IMG/VR virus record: IMGVR_UViG_3300031730_000001
Span: 1-64,000 of that record
From: a virus
Length of the DNA stretch: 64,000 nucleotides
Strand: one strand, 5' to 3'
Below the pieces are notes generated by a model. It saw nothing but the letters and a program-made list of their open reading frames with translations. It had not been told where the DNA came from and made no database searches. Position 1 is the stretch's first letter. Every line of letters begins with the position of its first letter. The position numbers and the translations under genes are program-made. Shown here piece after piece: positions 16,787 through 21,594 of this stretch.

Positions 16787-18172
16787 ATGGCCCTCGATCT
16801 CGAACCGGATGCGTGGCTGAAGCGGCTGATCCAGTGTCACGACAAGGATCTGCCGCAGCTCCGCCTGATGGACAGCTACTACGAGGGCACGCAGCCGCTG
16901 AGCTACCTGGCGCCGGAGATCCAGGCGGAGTTGTCGGACCGGATGCGCCAGTTGGTCATCAACTGGCCACAGCTGGTGGTGGACGCTCTGGACGAGCGGT
17001 TGGACGTCGAGGGCTTCCGGTACGCGGACTCGGAGACGACGGCCGACGACCTGTGGTCGGTATGGCAGGCCTCCGACATGGATGAGGGCTCCCAGCAGGC
17101 CCATGTCGATGCGTTGGCCCTGAAGCGGTCTTACGTGATCGTTGGCGCGAACGAGGATGACGAGTCGGCTCCGATCGTCACTGCGGAGAGCGCCCTGGAG
17201 GTGTTCGCGGAGCGGGATCCGCGAACGCGCCAGGTGGTCGCGGCGGTGAAGCGCTGGGACGAGCCGGCGCCGGCCGGGTCTGCGCCGGTGAAGTGGGCGA
17301 CGTTGTATCTGCCGAATGCGCGGATGACGTTCGAGCAGCAGAAGGGCGCTTGGGCCGAAGTCGACCGCGACGAGCACAACCTCGGTGAAGTGCTCGTCGT
17401 CCCGCTCGCCAACAGGCCGAGGCTGCGGCACGCGGACGGTACGTCCGAACTCCGCTCGATCATCCCGATCTCGGACGCGGCCTGCAAAATCGCCTCCGAC
17501 ATGATGGTGTCCGCCGAGTTTCACGCGATGCCGCGCCGTTGGGCGACAGGGATGTCCCGGGATGACTTCGCCGACGAGAACGGGCAGCCGCTGGGTGCAA
17601 TGTCGTCGCTGGCGGGCCGTCTGTGGGCGAACGAGAGCACCGAGGTGAAGTTCGGTCAGTTCCAGGAGGCCCAGCTCAGTAACTTCCACGAGACGCTCAA
17701 CACGCTCGCCCGCTTGGTGGCCGCACTGACTGGCCTGCCGCCCGCCTTCCTTGGCTTGGCGACTGATCAGCCGCCGTCGGCGGATGCGATCCGCGCGTCG
17801 GAGGCCCGGCTGGTGAAGCGTGCGGAGCGCCACCAGCGGGCCTTCGGTGAGGTCTGGGAGCGGGTTATGCGTCTCGTTCTGCTGGTCCGGGACGGTGAAC
17901 TCGACCCTCGAACCCGCAAGCTCGAAACGGTCTGGCGGGATCCGGCGACTCCGACCTACGCGCAGAAGGCCGACGCCGTGGTGAAACTGCACGCGTCCGG
18001 CATTCTGCCGACGGAGCAGGCGTGGGAGGACTTGGGCTACAGCGCGGTGCAGCGGGCCCGGATGCGGGGCATGCAGGACGATGCCTTGACCCGGATGACG
18101 GCCATGGATCTGCACCAGTTGTCGACGGCCCACGAGCCGACGCCTGTTGAGGCGCCTCCTGTCGGCGGCTGA
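16787..18172 (+). CDS. Portal protein (SPP1 gp6-like)
   Basis: YYEG.QPL, NW..LVVD...ERL, G.SEL, SADAI; position. Confidence 0.92.
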   Translation: MALDLEPDAWLKRLIQCHDKDLPQLRLMDSYYEGTQPLSYLAPEIQAELSDRMRQLVINWPQLVVDALDERLDVEGFRYADSETTADDLWSVWQASDMDEGSQQAHVDALALKRSYVIVGANEDDESAPIVTAESALEVFAERDPRTRQVVAAVKRWDEPAPAGSAPVKWATLYLPNARMTFEQQKGAWAEVDRDEHNLGEVLVVPLANRPRLRHADGTSELRSIIPISDAACKIASDMMVSAEFHAMPRRWATGMSRDDFADENGQPLGAMSSLAGRLWANESTEVKFGQFQEAQLSNFHETLNTLARLVAALTGLPPAFLGLATDQPPSADAIRASEARLVKRAERHQRAFGEVWERVMRLVLLVRDGELDPRTRKLETVWRDPATPTYAQKADAVVKLHASGILPTEQAWEDLGYSAVQRARMRGMQDDALTRMTAMDLHQLSTAHEPTPVEAPPVGG

Positions 18173-18174
18173 TC

Positions 18175-19212
18175 GTGGCCGTTGAGACGCAGGCGCATCA
18201 GGACATCATCGACGCCTATGGCCGGTCTCAGCAGCGGGCTGTCATTCAGACGACGGTGACGTTGCAGCGGCTGTGGAAGGAGCTCGCGGCCACGGATCTC
18301 TCACGGTCGTGGCTGGGCGGTCTGGGTGCGGCAATGGTGCGCGCGGTGGCGGCCGGCCAGTTGGTGGCGGCGTCGACGGGCCAGAAGTACATCGAGGCGA
18401 TGGTCCGCGGGGATGGGCTGGGCAACAACTACATGGAGCAGGCGTCGCACGTCGACACCCGCTCGTTTTCGGGGGCGGCGTCGGATGGTCGGGCCCTGGA
18501 TTCGCTGCTGTATCTGCCGGTGATCCATACGAAGACCCTGATCGGCAACGGCATGACGTTGCCGGAGTCGATGACGTCCGGCCTGTTCCAGCTGCAGCGG
18601 ATGGTGGCCTCGGAGGTCGCCGACGCCGGCCGGGGTGCGGCCAGTGTCGCGATGGTCGCGAACCGCACCGTGACCGGCTACGTGCGGCAGGTCCGGTCGG
18701 GCGCGTGCGCACGCTGTGCGATCCTGGCGGGCCGCTGGTATCGGTACAATGCGGACTTTCAGAGACATAAGCGCTGCCAGTGCTATGGGGTTCCCGCGAC
18801 CGATGCCCGTCCGGGCCGCCACACGAACCCGATGTCGTTCTTCCACGGCCTTTCCCGTGCCGAGCAGGATCGCCGGTTCACGATCGGTGGCGCGGAGGCG
18901 ATCCGCAATGGCGCCGACATCTATTCGGTGGTCAACGCGGGCCGGTCGACGATCACGTTGGACGCCTACGGCAAGAAGGTCGTGGCCACGCTTGAGGGCA
19001 CCACGAAGCGCGGGGCGTTCTACCAGCAGATGTTGCGTGAGGCCGAGCAGCGCACCGGGCAGCGGTTCGCGCGGAACGGCTACGACCTGGAACGCGGCCT
19101 GCCTCGCTTCCACTTGCGGACGCCGCGGCTGACGCCCGGCGAGATCCTGCGTCTCTCGGATGACCGCGACGAGCTGATCAGGCTCTTGAAGCGGTTCGGA
19201 TACCTGTCTTAG
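18175..19212 (+). CDS. Minor capsid / MuF-like head morphogenesis protein
   Basis: ACARCAILAG...FQRHKRCQC; after portal. Confidence 0.8.
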   Translation: MAVETQAHQDIIDAYGRSQQRAVIQTTVTLQRLWKELAATDLSRSWLGGLGAAMVRAVAAGQLVAASTGQKYIEAMVRGDGLGNNYMEQASHVDTRSFSGAASDGRALDSLLYLPVIHTKTLIGNGMTLPESMTSGLFQLQRMVASEVADAGRGAASVAMVANRTVTGYVRQVRSGACARCAILAGRWYRYNADFQRHKRCQCYGVPATDARPGRHTNPMSFFHGLSRAEQDRRFTIGGAEAIRNGADIYSVVNAGRSTITLDAYGKKVVATLEGTTKRGAFYQQMLREAEQRTGQRFARNGYDLERGLPRFHLRTPRLTPGEILRLSDDRDELIRLLKRFGYLS

Positions 19213-19291
19213 CCCGCGGGCCAGTTCCGCAGGCCTCAAGTTTGGCCGCGCGCAAGGCGCGGTCTCTGATCCCGCAATGGGAGTTCCATCC

Positions 19292-20068
19292 ATGAGTACG
19301 ACTCGTACCCGCTGGCTGCCTGCTGCTCAGAGCGTGGGCTGGTTCCGGCTCGACCGTCATGAAGACCCCGACCCCGCCGACCCGGAGCCTGCTCCGGACC
19401 CGGCAGCCGATCCGGCAGATCCGGATCCCGACCCCGAGCCTGATCCGGCAGGCGACCCGCCCGGCCCCGATCCTGAGGACGACCCGGAGGGCGCCGACGA
19501 GCTCGGCGAGGGTGGCAAGCGGGCCCTCGCCGCGATGAAGGCCGAGAAGGCGGCGGCGAAGAAGGAAGCCGCTGCCTCCAAGAAGCAGGCGGCCGAGGAG
19601 CGGCGCAAGGTCGCCGAGCTGGCCCGCAAGGTGGCCGAGTTCGAGGACCGCGATAAGTCGGAGCTGGAGAAGGCGCAGGCGAAGGCCGATCGCTCCGAGA
19701 AGCAGGCGACCGCGGCGGTCGCCCGTTCGGTGCGGTCCGAGATCAAGGTTGCGGCGAGCGACACGTTTGCCGACGCCTCGGACGCCATCGATGTTCTGAT
19801 GCGCGACCCCTCGAAGTACGTCGACGCCGACGGCGAGATCGACACCGACGCGATCGAAGCGGACCTCACGGATCTGCTGGAGCGGAAGCCGCATTGGGCC
19901 AAGCCTGAGCCGGCGGTCGTGGTGCCCGAGGGGGCGCCGAAGCAGAAGCTGAAGCCCGATCCGGGCCAGGGCAGTCGCGGCGGTAGCGCCAAGGTCGACT
20001 ACCGCACCGCCTCTGATGAGGACGTGCAGGCGGAGCTAACGAAGATCGGTTTCCGGAAGCGCTACTAG
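19292..20068 (+). CDS. Capsid scaffolding protein
   Basis: Acidic Pro-rich linker, coiled coil, DKSELEK; N-terminal WFRLDRH. Confidence 0.85.
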   Translation: MSTTRTRWLPAAQSVGWFRLDRHEDPDPADPEPAPDPAADPADPDPDPEPDPAGDPPGPDPEDDPEGADELGEGGKRALAAMKAEKAAAKKEAAASKKQAAEERRKVAELARKVAEFEDRDKSELEKAQAKADRSEKQATAAVARSVRSEIKVAASDTFADASDAIDVLMRDPSKYVDADGEIDTDAIEADLTDLLERKPHWAKPEPAVVVPEGAPKQKLKPDPGQGSRGGSAKVDYRTASDEDVQAELTKIGFRKRY

Positions 20069-20256
20069 TGATCAGGATTCGCGCCCGGTTGGGCGACGGG
20101 CGCACCTCGATCGAGGTGACTGGTCACGACGGGCCTGCCGTAGGGGGTCGCGCTTGCGCTGCCGTGTCGGCCATCACCCAAACCGCGCTGCTGGGCCTGG
20201 ATCAGGTCGCGCAGCAATACCCGGACGACGTGTCCGTAGAAATCACTGAGGAGTGA
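20068..20256 (+). CDS. prp: Prp-family (ribosomal-processing) cysteine protease, minimal
   Basis: IEVTGH...ACAAVSA...LLGL...YPD.V; His/Cys dyad pattern. Confidence 0.8.
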   Translation: MIRIRARLGDGRTSIEVTGHDGPAVGGRACAAVSAITQTALLGLDQVAQQYPDDVSVEITEE

Positions 20257-20259
20257 CGA

Positions 20260-21594
20260 ATGACCCCCACCATGTCCGCGGTCCGCCCGCGGCTCAACCG
20301 CATGCCGCGGCCGTGGTTCCGTATCGACCGGCACGCCGGCGTTCGGTCGTCCCTGCCCGCAGCCCTTCAGGCGATGCTGCAGAACGGCATGCTCGACAGG
20401 GTGTTCCGGGACGCGCTCGTGCCGCAGTTCCTGTTCCCGCAGATCGCCGACAGCGAGCCCTGGATGGGTGGTCTCGGCGACAAGAAGACCTTCACCCGCA
20501 AGGGCCTGCTGGCGCCGGTGACGACTCCGGTGACCGGCTCGGACCCGTCGGCGGCGACCTACAGTCTTGAGCAGTGGTCTGTCGTGATGGACCAGTACTC
20601 GAACTCGATGGACACGAACATGCTGGGCAGCGCGCTGGCGCTGGCGAACAAGTTCCTGTCGGACGCGGCGACGTTGGGCATCAACGCGGGCCAGACCGTC
20701 AACCAGGTGGCCCGGAACCGGCTGTTCACCGCTTACGCGGGCGGTCGTACCTGGTGCACCACGGCCGGTTCCTCGGACACGGCGATCATCGTGCAGTCGA
20801 CGAACGGCTTCGAGACCGTTCTGGTCAACGGTGTTCCGACGCCCGTCTCGGGCGCCACTCCGCTCACTGTCAGCATCGCCGGTTCGGCGAACACGGTCGT
20901 CGGCGTCACCCCGGGCACTCCGGGCACGCTGACGCTGGGCACTGCGCGCGCGGACGTGGTCGGCGACTACGTGGTGGCGGCGAATGCCCCCATCTCGGTG
21001 CGGGCGACCGGCAACTCCGCCTACGACCTCAGCAGCTCCAACGTGGTGACGTTCGCGAACTTCCGGTCGGCGGTGGCGCGCCTGCGGAAGATGAACGTCC
21101 CGACGCTGCCGGGCGGCTACTACGTCGCGCACATCGACGCGGACACCGAAGCCGAACTCTTCTCGGATGCCGACTTCAAGCAGGCCCTTCAGGGCCGTGT
21201 CGACTCCCCGATCTTCCGGGATCTGTCGATCGGCCGGTTCGGCGGCATCGACTGGGTGCGCAACATCGAGGCCCCGACGATCCTCGGCGGCTCCGCTGGC
21301 ACCCTCGCTGTGCACCGCCCGATCGTGCTGGGCGCGAACGCGCTGATGAACTCGCCACTGGAGGGCACGGGCAACCTCATCGCCGGGACCGGCGTCGAGG
21401 ACGTGCCGGAGATCCGCACCATCAACGCCGCGCCCGGCGTAGACGTCACCCTGCTGGTGCGTCCGCCCCAGGACCGCCTGCAGCAGGTCATCTCCACGAC
21501 CTGGTCGTGGGTGGGCGACTTCGGTGTTCCGTCCGACGCGGGCTCCGGCGATGCGGCGCTGTTCAAGCGCGGTGTCGTCATCGAGCACGCCTGA
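20260..21594 (+). CDS. Major capsid protein
   Basis: Size and position after scaffold; N-terminal WFRIDRH; hairpin follows. Confidence 0.9.
   Translation: MTPTMSAVRPRLNRMPRPWFRIDRHAGVRSSLPAALQAMLQNGMLDRVFRDALVPQFLFPQIADSEPWMGGLGDKKTFTRKGLLAPVTTPVTGSDPSAATYSLEQWSVVMDQYSNSMDTNMLGSALALANKFLSDAATLGINAGQTVNQVARNRLFTAYAGGRTWCTTAGSSDTAIIVQSTNGFETVLVNGVPTPVSGATPLTVSIAGSANTVVGVTPGTPGTLTLGTARADVVGDYVVAANAPISVRATGNSAYDLSSSNVVTFANFRSAVARLRKMNVPTLPGGYYVAHIDADTEAELFSDADFKQALQGRVDSPIFRDLSIGRFGGIDWVRNIEAPTILGGSAGTLAVHRPIVLGANALMNSPLEGTGNLIAGTGVEDVPEIRTINAAPGVDVTLLVRPPQDRLQQVISTTWSWVGDFGVPSDAGSGDAALFKRGVVIEHA

What the first reader, a model, noticed from the sequence alone, without database searches (positions are those of the whole stretch)
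19292..21594. Phage-encoded mini-Prp protease with a shared candidate cleavage motif (WFR[L/I]DRH) on scaffold and capsid
Seen: a 62-aa ORF (20068-20256) between scaffold and capsid has the Prp pattern GH...CAAVSA. Both neighbours carry an N-terminal extension ending in the same motif: scaffold GWFRLDRH-EDP, capsid PWFRIDRH-AGV. Known: in Firmicutes, Prp trims the L27 extension and also phage 80alpha scaffold and capsid at a shared motif; from memory, pneumococcal phage Cp-1 encodes its own Prp that cuts after a His. Inference: actinobacterial L27 lacks that extension, so this phage brings a much shortened protease with its own recognition motif to mature its head.
Basis: partly seen in the sequence, partly recalled or inferred. 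Interest (0 to 1): 0.8.

Follow-up and report, generated by a model that had tools for sequence, protein, structure and literature searches.

The report
Half-size Prp protease for phage heads
A Streptomyces-type phage encodes a 62-residue, half-length relative of the bacterial protease Prp between its scaffold and coat genes, and both proteins start with the same short tag that this enzyme most likely cuts off; the scheme is known from other phages, but the tiny enzyme and its altered tag are untested new variants.

Summary

- **The gene.** ORF 20068-20256 (62 aa) passes Pfam Peptidase_Prp at 28 bits against a cut-off of 27. It keeps the G-H...C-A-A-V-S catalytic core.
- **The motif.** Scaffold and capsid both start with a leader ending in W-F-x-[L/I]-x-R-H. 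These are the only two six-frame hits in the 64-kb window; shuffled copies average 0.07.
- **Co-occurrence.** In related viral and prophage loci that carry the mini-Prp, the leader is on the scaffold in 164 of 164 and on the capsid in 172 of 175. The 3 misses are motif variants. In 15 of 15 more distant capsid relatives without Prp, the leader is absent and the capsid starts about 3 residues after the predicted cut.
- **Hosts.** Five of 5 host genomes have no Prp of their own and have a short L27.
- **New here.** The enzyme is not C-terminally truncated. It has an internal deletion that joins helix 1 to the end of helix 2, leaving a single beta-beta-alpha unit.
- **Precedent.** Cleavage after His matches Cp-1 (His48|Ala49).
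- **Rival protease.** The neighbouring VG15-like "maturation protease" separates from the leader in both directions.

No cleavage has been shown. The fold match to solved Prps is weak, and an Asp needed by the S. aureus enzyme is missing. One earlier first-reader note in this scan described the same thing on other DNA. Verdict: a new variant of a known kind.

The parts
19292..20068 (+). Head scaffolding protein (258 aa from ATG 19292; a longer ORF starts at ATG 19277)
   Evidence: PHROG 4708 'head scaffolding protein', E 7.4e-23. 56% identical to Kromp gp5 scaffolding protein. GGGAG lies 8 nt upstream of 19292 (read).
19292..19360 (+). Scaffold leader (23 aa) ending in W-F-R-L-D-R-H (19340-19360). 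Predicted cut after His, so the new N-terminus would be E-D-P-D-P...
   Evidence: Motif hit. Conserved in 164 of 164 mini-Prp loci with enough upstream flank. Absent from the scaffolds of Prp-less relatives.
20068..20256 (+). Mini-Prp, a 62-aa Prp-family cysteine protease (predicted). G19-H20 at 20122-20127, C30 at 20155-20157, S34 at 20167-20169.
   Evidence: Pfam PF04327, 28 bits against cut-off 27. H20 and C30 are invariant in 48 close homologs and 35 distant ones. Median dN/dS 0.28. AF2 model pLDDT 83.6.
20260..21594 (+). Major capsid protein (444 aa)
   Evidence: PHROG 1357 'major head protein', E 4.6e-20. 56% identical to Kromp gp7. 33-35% identical to the capsids of Ralstonia and Komagataeibacter phages.
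20260..20334 (+). Capsid leader (25 aa) ending in W-F-R-I-D-R-H (20314-20334). Predicted cut after His25, so the mature protein would start A-G-V-R-S-S at 20335.
   Evidence: F20, R24 and H25 are the only invariant columns in the first 30 residues of 41 capsids. Prp-less homologs begin at the position aligned to residues 27-30.
18175..19212 (+). VG15-like protein (345 aa), annotated elsewhere as 'capsid maturation protease'. A neighbour and rival candidate, probably not the enzyme acting on the leaders.
   Evidence: Pfam PF25310 VG15 and PHROG 1522. AF2 pLDDT 87, mostly helical, no protease-fold match. Separates from the leader in both directions.

Best explanation
The 62-aa gene encodes a phage-borne head-maturation protease of the Prp family (MEROPS C108, His/Cys dyad). 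It removes an N-terminal leader from both the scaffolding protein and the major capsid protein. It recognises the non-prime side W(P7)-F(P6)-x-L(P4)-x-R(P2)-H(P1) and cuts between His and the next residue (Asp or Ala). The hosts are actinobacteria with no Prp and a short L27, so the phage has to bring the enzyme itself.

The enzyme is a single beta-hairpin/helix/strand unit. It looks like the product of a deletion between the two similar helices of full-length Prp. I infer that it must form homo-oligomers to rebuild the Prp sheet and the substrate groove at a subunit interface.

Shown here: family membership by profile; conservation of the dyad; purifying selection; strict co-occurrence of enzyme and leaders; absence of host Prp and long L27.

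Inferred: catalysis, the exact scissile bond, and the oligomeric state.
For: **Family.** Pfam PF04327 scores 28 bits against a cut-off of 27. Four of 5 prophage copies score over the cut-off. hhalign of the mini-Prp profile against full-length Prps gives probability 99.7%, E 1.3e-25.

**Catalytic residues.** G19, H20, G27 and C30 are invariant in 48 homologs. H20 and C30 are the only invariant columns across 35 short and full-length forms. All 92 distinct 62-codon genes have G-H at 19-20 and C at 30, and median dN/dS is 0.28 over 599 pairs.

**Leaders.**
- The window has only 2 motif sites, against 0.07 expected.
- Across mini-Prp loci the motif is on the scaffold in 121/121 viral and 43/43 prophage loci, and on the capsid in 128/130 and 44/45. 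The 3 misses are variants.
- In 96 distinct capsid contexts, P6 is F in 95, P4 is L in 92, P2 is R in 96 and P1 is H in 96.
- In 114 distinct scaffold contexts, P6 is F in 113, P4 is L in 108, P2 is R in 113, and P1 is H in 105 and F in 9.
- Similarity between scaffold and capsid stops at P1/P1'.

**Retrieval independent of Prp.** Of 67 capsid relatives at 55% identity or more, 65 have the mini-Prp directly upstream; the other 2 have no upstream DNA. All 15 relatives at 33-37% identity lack Prp and leader, and their capsids start at the position aligned to residues 21-31.

**Register.** Hydrophobic P6 and P4 and an aromatic P1 match the S. aureus Prp-L27 complex as described in PMC9405229, section 3.4.1.

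**P1 His precedent.** Cp-1 has His48|Ala49, and Cp-1 orf13 matches the Prp profile over positions 1-89 of 90.

**Hosts.** Five of 5 have no other Prp match and an L27 starting MAHKK.
Against: - No experiment shows cleavage.
- The Pfam score clears the cut-off by only 1 bit, and the six-frame piece scored 24.7 bits.
- NCBIfam Prp equivalog models score 15-21 bits against cut-offs of 133-225.
- About 40 residues of the parent fold are missing (strands 3-4 and part of helix 2).
- Foldseek finds no Prp match. VIA-align places 3 solved Prps at ranks 3, 4 and 6 of 48,161 chains, but at Z 3.7-3.9, level with unrelated chains.
- The residue corresponding to S. aureus Asp31 (Cys minus 3) is Gly in this clade. 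The D31A mutant of the S. aureus enzyme is inactive (PMC9405229, section 3.4.1).
- In phage 80alpha the equivalent cleavages are dispensable, and the scaffold leader is needed for assembly rather than for being cut (PMC5744158, passages). The leader's main role here could likewise be something other than removal.
Confidence: 0.7

Rival explanations
1. The mini-Prp binds the leaders but no longer cuts them. It would act as a small chaperone or adaptor that coordinates folding or co-assembly of scaffold and capsid through their common N-terminal tag, and the tag would stay on or be removed by something else.
For: A third of the parent fold is missing, and the Asp31 equivalent that S. aureus Prp needs is absent (PMC9405229 section 3.4.1). 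In 80alpha the scaffold leader is needed for assembly while its cleavage is dispensable, and the authors suggest association with a common chaperone (PMC5744158 discussion). [quoted passage not shown]
Against: His20 and Cys30 are the only invariant residues across all short and long forms, which is hard to explain without catalysis. G19 and S34, which support catalysis in S. aureus Prp, are also kept. Prp-less capsid homologs begin right after the predicted cut, so the mature capsid does not need the leader.
Confidence: 0.12
2. The mini-Prp is the protease, but it cuts elsewhere in the motif. The cut could fall after W-F, by analogy with the F-F|A site of L27 and 80alpha, leaving R-x-D-R-H on the mature proteins.
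For: Known Prp substrates have two aromatic residues at P2-P1 (PMC9405229 section 3.4.1; PMC5744158). W-F is the most Prp-like dipeptide in the motif.
Against: - Known substrates have a small P1' residue (Ala or Ser); here it would be Arg, Asp, Gln or Asn.
- R and H are the most invariant positions and end the shared block.
- His is replaced by Phe in 9 scaffold contexts and one capsid, as expected of an aromatic P1.
- W is sometimes displaced by one residue or replaced.
- Cp-1 cuts after His.
Confidence: 0.1
3. The upstream VG15-like protein (18175-19212), annotated 'capsid maturation protease' in Kromp and other actinophages, is the enzyme that processes the leaders. The 62-aa gene would then be a decaying remnant.
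For: PHROG 1522 and the GenBank annotations call this family a head or capsid maturation protease. It co-occurs with the mini-Prp in most loci with enough upstream DNA.
Against: - It has no protease family hit in Pfam or NCBIfam and no PDB sequence hit.
- A confident model (pLDDT 87) is mostly helical and gave only generic helical-bundle matches. Residues 166-345 were barely tested.
- Arthrobacter phage Isolde has a clear homolog (37% identity, E 9e-47) but no Prp, no motif and no shared leader.
- L137 has Prp and both leaders but no VG15-like gene in its contiguous portal-scaffold-Prp-capsid block, nor elsewhere in its 37.5-kb record, which is about 54% complete.
- The mini-Prp is under purifying selection, so it is not decaying.
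Confidence: 0.04

Closest known systems
Staphylococcus aureus Prp acting on ribosomal protein L27 and on phage 80alpha scaffold and capsid (Wall et al. 2015, not held; seen through PMC5744158 passages and PMC9405229 sections 1.1, 3.2 and 3.4.1)
   Same: His/Cys protease with G-H...C-A-A-V-S. One short N-terminal tag is shared by scaffold and capsid and removed from both. Recognition is on the non-prime side, with hydrophobic P6 and P4 and an aromatic P1.
   Different: - There the enzyme is host-encoded, about 106 aa, and its main substrate is L27. Here it is phage-encoded, 62 aa, and the hosts have neither Prp nor a long L27.
- The tag is W-F-x-L-x-R-H|D/A rather than L-x-L-Q-F-F|A.
- The Asp31 equivalent is absent.
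Streptococcus phage Cp-1 protease (orf13), placed in MEROPS C108 with Prp (PMC12445089 and PMC9405229 passages; Martin et al. 1998 not held)
   Same: A phage-encoded Prp-family protease that trims the N-terminus of the major head protein. The cut falls after His and before Ala (His48|Ala49), the same P1/P1' as this window's capsid.
   Different: - Cp-1 orf13 is full length: 104 aa, matching Prp profile positions 1-89 of 90.
- It lies far from the head gene.
- It infects a Firmicute that has its own Prp (recalled).
- The removed piece is 48 residues, and I saw no W-F-x-L-x-R motif before the His.
Full-length Prp genes of Firmicutes phages with L27-like leaders
   Same: A phage carries its own Prp next to its head genes and puts a matching tag on its structural proteins.
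   Different: Those are about 100-115 aa with both repeats, and per the earlier notes (unchecked by me) their tags copy the host L27 leader. Here the enzyme is one repeat long and the tag is unlike L27.
Streptomyces phage Kromp gp6 'protease' (MH744420) and proteins that NCBI names 'ribosomal-processing cysteine protease Prp' in Streptomyces, Kitasatospora and Nonomuraea genomes
   Same: The same 62-aa family (71% identity to Kromp gp6; up to 92% to prophage copies) in the same gene order.
   Different: These are database labels only. I found no paper on them. The 'ribosomal-processing' name does not fit hosts whose L27 has nothing to process.

Membership tests
Prp peptidase (Pfam PF04327 / MEROPS C108) | Significant match to the family profile | tested here: met
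   28.0 bits against a gathering cut-off of 27, E 2.6e-6. Four of 5 prophage copies score over the cut-off. hhalign against 100 full-length Prps gives E 1.3e-25. The margin in Pfam is only 1 bit, and the six-frame piece scored 24.7 bits.
Prp peptidase (Pfam PF04327 / MEROPS C108) | Catalytic His/Cys dyad in the G-H ... C-A-A-V-S arrangement, with Ser at Cys+4 | tested here: met
   G19-H20, C30 and S34 are present. H20 and C30 are invariant in alignments A6 (48 sequences) and A8 (35 sequences) and in 92 of 92 distinct genes.
Prp peptidase (Pfam PF04327 / MEROPS C108) | Asp at Cys-3 (Asp31 of S. aureus Prp; the D31A mutant is inactive according to PMC9405229 section 3.4.1) | tested here: not met
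   This clade has G27-R28 before C30. Some more distant short forms keep G-x-D-I-V-C.
Prp peptidase (Pfam PF04327 / MEROPS C108) | Complete two-part fold (beta1-beta2-alpha1-beta3-beta4-alpha2-beta5, about 90 profile positions) | tested here: not met
   - The Pfam match covers profile positions 1-56 of 90.
- PDB Prps match in two pieces: query 14-46 to residues 49-83, and query 39-61 to residues 122-144 of 2g0i. 1s12 and 2idl behave likewise.
- Most full-length representatives match in 2 stretches, while short ones match in 1.
- The alignment shows a gap of about 40 residues.
Prp peptidase (Pfam PF04327 / MEROPS C108) | Structural similarity of a model to solved Prps (4PEO, 1S12, 2IDL) | tested here: inconclusive
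   Foldseek gave no match at E <= 0.001. VIA-align gave 1s12 Z 3.9 (rmsd 2.5, 53 aligned), 2idl Z 3.9 (2.6, 59) and 4peo Z 3.7 (2.5, 50), at ranks 3, 4 and 6 of 48,161 but level with unrelated chains. All three align to the second half of Prp.
Prp peptidase (Pfam PF04327 / MEROPS C108) | Proteolytic activity on an N-terminal leader | not testable with these tools
   Indirect evidence only: leaders co-occur with the gene and are absent without it.
NCBIfam 'ribosomal-processing cysteine protease Prp' equivalogs (NF011128 and others) | Score over the equivalog cut-off, and an L27 with an N-terminal extension as substrate | tested here: not met
   Scores are 15-21 bits against cut-offs of 133-225. 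L27 starts MAHKKGASS in 5 of 5 host genomes, with a stop 2-3 codons upstream in 4 of them.
80alpha-type head maturation (one tag on scaffold and capsid, removed by Prp) | The same N-terminal tag on both scaffold and capsid | tested here: met
80alpha-type head maturation (one tag on scaffold and capsid, removed by Prp) | The protease is supplied by the host | tested here: not met
   In 5 of 5 host genomes the only Prp match is the prophage copy. The gene lies between scaffold and capsid in the phage.

The most novel reading that the evidence does not exclude
The 62-aa protein is an active protease and one of the smallest protease subunits known. It would be a single beta-beta-alpha-beta unit of a fold that, in ordinary Prp, is an internal duplication. 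It would have arisen by recombination between the two similar helices (both contain ...T-x-x-L-G-L...). It would then work only as a homo-oligomer that rebuilds the Prp sheet, with twice the usual number of active sites, and with a private specificity (R-H|D/A) matching nothing in the host. That would make it a natural minimal, orthogonal tag-removal enzyme and a window on how the Prp fold evolved.
Probability: 0.4. Interest if true: 0.8.

Novelty: new variant of a known kind. Interest (0 to 1): 0.6.

Why it matters
Phage-encoded Prp proteases with matching tags on head proteins are known (Cp-1) or widely predicted. Three things stand out here.

1. **Size.** The enzyme is about half the size of any studied Prp and keeps only one of the fold's two repeats. 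If it is active, it sets a lower size limit for this protease class and suggests how the fold arose or can be pared down.
2. **Hosts.** It operates in actinobacteria, which lack both Prp and the long L27. The system is therefore fully phage-private. That gives a clean setting for studying what leader removal does for capsid assembly, a question still open for 80alpha.
3. **The tag.** W-F-x-L-x-R-H|D/A is sharply defined by more than 90 distinct capsid and more than 110 distinct scaffold examples. This gives a ready hypothesis about specificity, including apparent co-variation in one lineage.

There is also an annotation point. The name 'ribosomal-processing cysteine protease Prp' for these prophage genes is misleading, and I found no support for the 'capsid maturation protease' label on the neighbouring VG15-like gene.

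Tried and rejected
**Complex prediction.** I ran complex prediction with two copies of mini-Prp (alignment A6) and capsid residues 1-50 (alignment A7) as the partner. The verdict was 'no answer': scores 0.02 and 0.01 against a mark of 0.32, and the controls were not run.

**Fold searches.** Foldseek of the mini-Prp model against the PDB gave no match at E <= 0.001. Foldseek and VIA-align of the VG15-like model gave only helical bundles, and the C-terminal half of that model was barely tested.

**Context of more distant short Prps (58-83 aa, some apparently low-GC).** This remains undetermined.
- tblastn of P0162 and P0152 against 'phages' found only Kromp as a short form.
- Two viral-contig scans found nothing.
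- Cluster membership gave no organism names.

**Read-through fusion of Prp to capsid.** In the window the two genes share a frame, separated only by TGA-CGA. I rejected a conserved fusion because the frame relation varies across loci: 19 in the same frame, 6 and 45 in the other two.

**C-terminal truncation.** Rejected in favour of an internal deletion.

**My first locus survey** picked ORFs by length and mis-assigned several in this high-GC DNA. I replaced it with frame-independent scans.

**Literature.** Searches found no paper on a short Prp, on Prp in actinophages, or on virion proteomics of Kromp-like phages. The one paper that uses Kromp (bioRxiv 10.1101/2025.09.03.674096, passages) does not analyse its capsid. 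Wall et al. 2015 (PMC4418427) and Martin et al. 1998 (PMC109866) are not held. What I say about them comes from reviews and from the Cp-1 genome record. I opened no supplementary files; those of the 80alpha and Prp papers may list phage Prp homologs that I could not see.
Full report
**What is there.** The window belongs to an 89.9-kb IMG/VR viral record that CheckV rates about 95% complete. Between 16.8 and 21.6 kb, on the + strand, it carries a standard head module:
- portal, 16787-18172 (Pfam SPP1_portal, E 1e-48);
- a VG15-like protein, 18175-19212;
- scaffold, 19277/19292-20068 (PHROG 4708);
- a 62-aa ORF, 20068-20256;
- major capsid protein, 20260-21594 (PHROG 1357).

The genes are tightly coupled. 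The GTG of the 62-aa ORF overlaps the scaffold's TAG by one base, and the capsid ATG follows the ORF's TGA by three bases, with GGAG 6 nt upstream. The scaffold reads ...S-V-G-W-F-R-L-D-R-H-E-D-P and the capsid ...R-P-W-F-R-I-D-R-H-A-G-V, exactly as reported. A six-frame scan of all 64 kb for W[FYL]x[LIVM]xRH finds only these two sites, while 30 shuffles averaged 0.07 hits.

**Family of the 62-aa protein.** Pfam Peptidase_Prp matches at 28.0 bits (cut-off 27), but only over profile positions 1-56 of 90. PHROG 4478 'peptidase' also matches. The word-indexed search found 365 homologs. Of the 120 listed, 101 are 62 aa, 12 are 63, 4 are 64, 2 are 65 and 1 is 80. Many come from Streptomyces, Kitasatospora, Nonomuraea and Streptosporangium genomes, where NCBI names them 'ribosomal-processing cysteine protease Prp'. 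The closest prophage copy is 92% identical, so the phage most likely infects Streptomyces.

Among 50,697 deposited phage genomes only Streptomyces phage Kromp has this form. Its gp6 is labelled 'protease', is 71% identical, and sits in the same gene order. G19, H20, G27 and C30 are invariant in 48 homologs. Across 35 sequences that include distant short forms and full-length Prps, H20 and C30 are the only invariant columns. All 92 distinct 62-codon genes keep G-H at 19-20 and C at 30, and median dN/dS is 0.28 over 599 pairs. This is a maintained gene with a maintained dyad.

**It is internally deleted, not truncated.** Against solved Prps, the profile of the short form matches in two pieces. 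Positions 14-46 align to the catalytic loop and helix 1 (residues 49-83 of 2g0i). Positions 39-61 align to the end of helix 2 and the last strand (residues 122-144). 1s12 and 2idl show the same split. In the exhaustive search there were 683 hits at E <= 0.001. Of the best 150, 39 are 58-83 aa and 100 are 97-125 aa. The short ones match end to end in one stretch, and most full-length ones match in two stretches. The alignment shows a gap of about 40 residues between ...Q-T-A-x-L-G-L of helix 1 and the matching ...T-M-x-L-G-L...Y-P-x-x-V of helix 2.

Profile-profile comparison supports an internal repeat. The N- and C-halves of 100 full-length Prps align over the helix (19 columns, probability 83%, E 9e-6). 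The short form aligns nearly end to end with either half: E 1.5e-25 over 51 columns against the N-half, and E 2.5e-14 over 64 columns against the C-half.

The AF2 model (pLDDT 83.6) is a hairpin (residues 2-7 and 14-19), one long helix (28-50) and an extended tail. VIA-align superposes it on the second half of 1s12, 2idl and 4peo. Those rank 3, 4 and 6 of 48,161 chains, but at Z of only 3.7-3.9, level with unrelated chains, and Foldseek finds nothing. I read the protein as a single hybrid repeat, of the kind that recombination between the two similar helices would leave. Such a unit presumably has to oligomerise to rebuild the sheet. That last step is inference.

**The leaders go with the enzyme.** I retrieved loci in two independent ways.

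*Through the mini-Prp* (76 viral loci; 45 actinobacterial prophage loci among the 65). The strict motif was on the scaffold side in 62 of 70 loci and on the capsid side in 66 of 73 loci with enough flank. It occurred nowhere else in any locus. With a pattern that admits the variants seen, the counts are as follows:

| Side | Viral loci | Prophage loci |
|---|---|---|
| Scaffold | 121 of 121 | 43 of 43 |
| Capsid | 128 of 130 | 44 of 45 |

The viral set includes contigs retrieved twice, so the independent measure is 114 distinct scaffold contexts and 96 distinct capsid contexts. Five listed loci were dropped before these counts because my G-H...C pattern did not find a Prp. Two have no upstream DNA (L101, L136). 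Two have a variant helix (L095, seen, and L096). One has only a partial tblastn match (L124). The three capsid misses are variants that keep the last two positions: V-F-R-L-D-R-F in L126, W-F-Q-A-D-R-H in L167 and W-L-V-N-D-R-H in L076. The relaxed pattern is rare by chance, with 4 hits in six frames of 123 kb of Prp-less loci, none in register with a capsid.

*Through the capsid, without reference to Prp* (scored). Of 67 relatives at 55% identity or more, 65 have the mini-Prp immediately upstream, and the other two have no upstream DNA. All 15 relatives at 33-37% identity have no Prp, no motif and no VG15-like gene, and align only from query residues 21-31. These are 13 viral contigs plus Ralstonia phage Hyacinthe and Komagataeibacter phage phiKX1. 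In the two named phages the capsid begins M-P-I-S-N-F-P-A-A-L-Q or M-A-I-A-N-F-P-A-S-L-Q, aligned to V-R-S-S-L-P-A-A-L-Q here. The scaffold also lacks the N-terminal extension.

**Where the cut falls.** Position by position:

| Position | Capsid (96 contexts) | Scaffold (114 contexts) |
|---|---|---|
| P7 | W 87 | W 99 |
| P6 | F 95 | F 113 |
| P4 | L 92, I 4 | L 108 |
| P2 | R 96 | R 113 |
| P1 | H 96 | H 105, F 9 |
| P1' | D 66, A 26 | D 98 |

After P1/P1' the two proteins diverge completely: capsid D-V-R-S-T-L-P-A, scaffold D-D-P-D-P. Before P7 they vary freely.

Hydrophobic P6 and P4 with an aromatic P1 is the register described for L27 in the S. aureus Prp complex. There, L27's Leu4 and Leu6 lie at the dimer interface and the P1 Phe stacks on the catalytic His (PMC9405229 section 3.4.1). 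Replacement of His by Phe in some leaders fits an aromatic P1.

The remembered Cp-1 precedent also holds up. Reviews say the Cp-1 protease belongs with Prp and removes the first 48 residues of the head protein (PMC12445089); PMC9405229 says 'about 40'. The Cp-1 sequence has His48-Ala49, and Cp-1 orf13 (104 aa) matches the Prp profile over positions 1-89 of 90, at a sub-threshold 18.5 bits. A cut after W-F cannot be excluded, but it would put Arg, Asp, Gln or Asn at P1', where known substrates have Ala or Ser.

**Hosts.** I checked five genomes that carry the prophage: three Streptomyces, one Streptomycetaceae and one Microbispora, going by the record titles. In each, the only Prp-family match is the prophage locus itself. 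L27 starts MAHKKGASS in all five, with a stop codon 2-3 codons upstream in four. The phage therefore cannot borrow a host Prp as 80alpha does, and the database name 'ribosomal-processing' does not describe these genes.

**The rival protease.** The VG15-like gene is labelled 'capsid maturation protease' in Kromp and Isolde and by PHROG 1522. I found no protease family or PDB hit by sequence. A confident, mostly helical model (pLDDT 87) gave only generic helical-bundle matches; its C-terminal half, which has four invariant Cys, was barely tested.

The gene also separates from the leaders in both directions. Arthrobacter phage Isolde has a clear homolog (37% identity, E 9e-47) but no Prp and no motif, and its scaffold starts directly with the acidic, Pro-rich segment. 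L137 has Prp and both leaders, with the portal directly followed by the scaffold and no VG15-like match in its 37.5-kb record. That record is only about 54% complete, so this direction is weaker.

**What argues against.**
- Nothing here shows cleavage.
- The Pfam margin is 1 bit, and NCBIfam equivalog scores are far below their cut-offs.
- A third of the parent fold is gone, and the fold comparison is inconclusive.
- The counterpart of S. aureus Asp31, whose Ala mutant is inactive, is Gly in this clade.
- In 80alpha the capsid and scaffold cleavages are dispensable, and it is the scaffold leader itself that is needed (PMC5744158). Removal may not be the leader's main purpose here either.

**Comparison and novelty.** It works like the 80alpha/Prp scheme and like Cp-1. 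It is a member of the Prp family by profile and dyad, but it fails two family features (the complete fold and the Asp).

Earlier notes of this scan (AI notes, which I did not check) report many full-length phage Prps with L27-like tags in Firmicutes phages. One first-reader note describes the same 62-aa form with W-F-x-L-x-R-H in another genome and shows no follow-up (e1-3641116).

I found no paper on a short Prp or on Prp in actinophages. I therefore rate it a new variant of a known kind. The new elements are the single-repeat enzyme, the Prp-less hosts and the R-H|D/A tag.

Noticed in passing
L033:4192-4431 and L034:4192-4431 (capsid N-termini): Two related viral contigs have capsids with two leader motifs in tandem (W-F-R-L-D-R-H-D-G-L-R..., then W-F-D-L-G-R-H-D-V-R-S-T-L-P-A). 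This looks like a duplicated leader offering two candidate cut sites.
   Followed up: partly
L076:4001-4300 and its scaffold about 626 nt upstream of the Prp gene: In this lineage both leaders have Leu instead of Phe at P6 (W-L-T-M-L-R-H in the scaffold, W-L-V-N-D-R-H in the capsid). Its mini-Prp has A-A-V-T-W instead of A-A-V-S-A in the active-site helix. This may be enzyme-substrate co-variation. P0121 shows the same helix.
   Followed up: partly
window 20254-20262: The mini-Prp and capsid genes are in the same frame, separated only by TGA-CGA, so TGA read-through would fuse them. The frame relation is not conserved across loci (19, 6 and 45 in the three frames), so this is probably coincidence.
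   Followed up: yes
window 18175-19212: The VG15-like protein, widely annotated 'capsid maturation protease', shows no protease signature. Its model is mostly helical, and C178, C181, C201 and C203 are invariant (a possible zinc site). The family's label may rest on gene position alone.
   Followed up: partly
P0132-P0259 (representatives): There are 39 short (58-83 aa) Prp-like representatives among the best 150 hits, and 37 of them have an H...C pair in the first 50 residues. Some look low-GC, so the short form may not be confined to actinophages. Their gene context could not be retrieved.
   Followed up: partly
window 19277-19294: The scaffold ORF can start at ATG 19277 or ATG 19292. GGGAG lies 8 nt before 19292, and Kromp's annotated start aligns with it, so 19292 is the likelier start.
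   Followed up: partly
window 20260-21594: The capsid weakly matches the N4-gp56 major capsid family (TIGR04387, E 5e-10, 39 bits against a cut-off of 60). Its nearest isolated relatives outside actinophages are in Ralstonia and Komagataeibacter phages that have neither a protease nor a VG15-like gene in the head module.
   Followed up: no
L232:4859-4930 (Arthrobacter phage Isolde): A tRNA-Trp gene is annotated between the VG15-like gene and the scaffold gene of Isolde.
   Followed up: no
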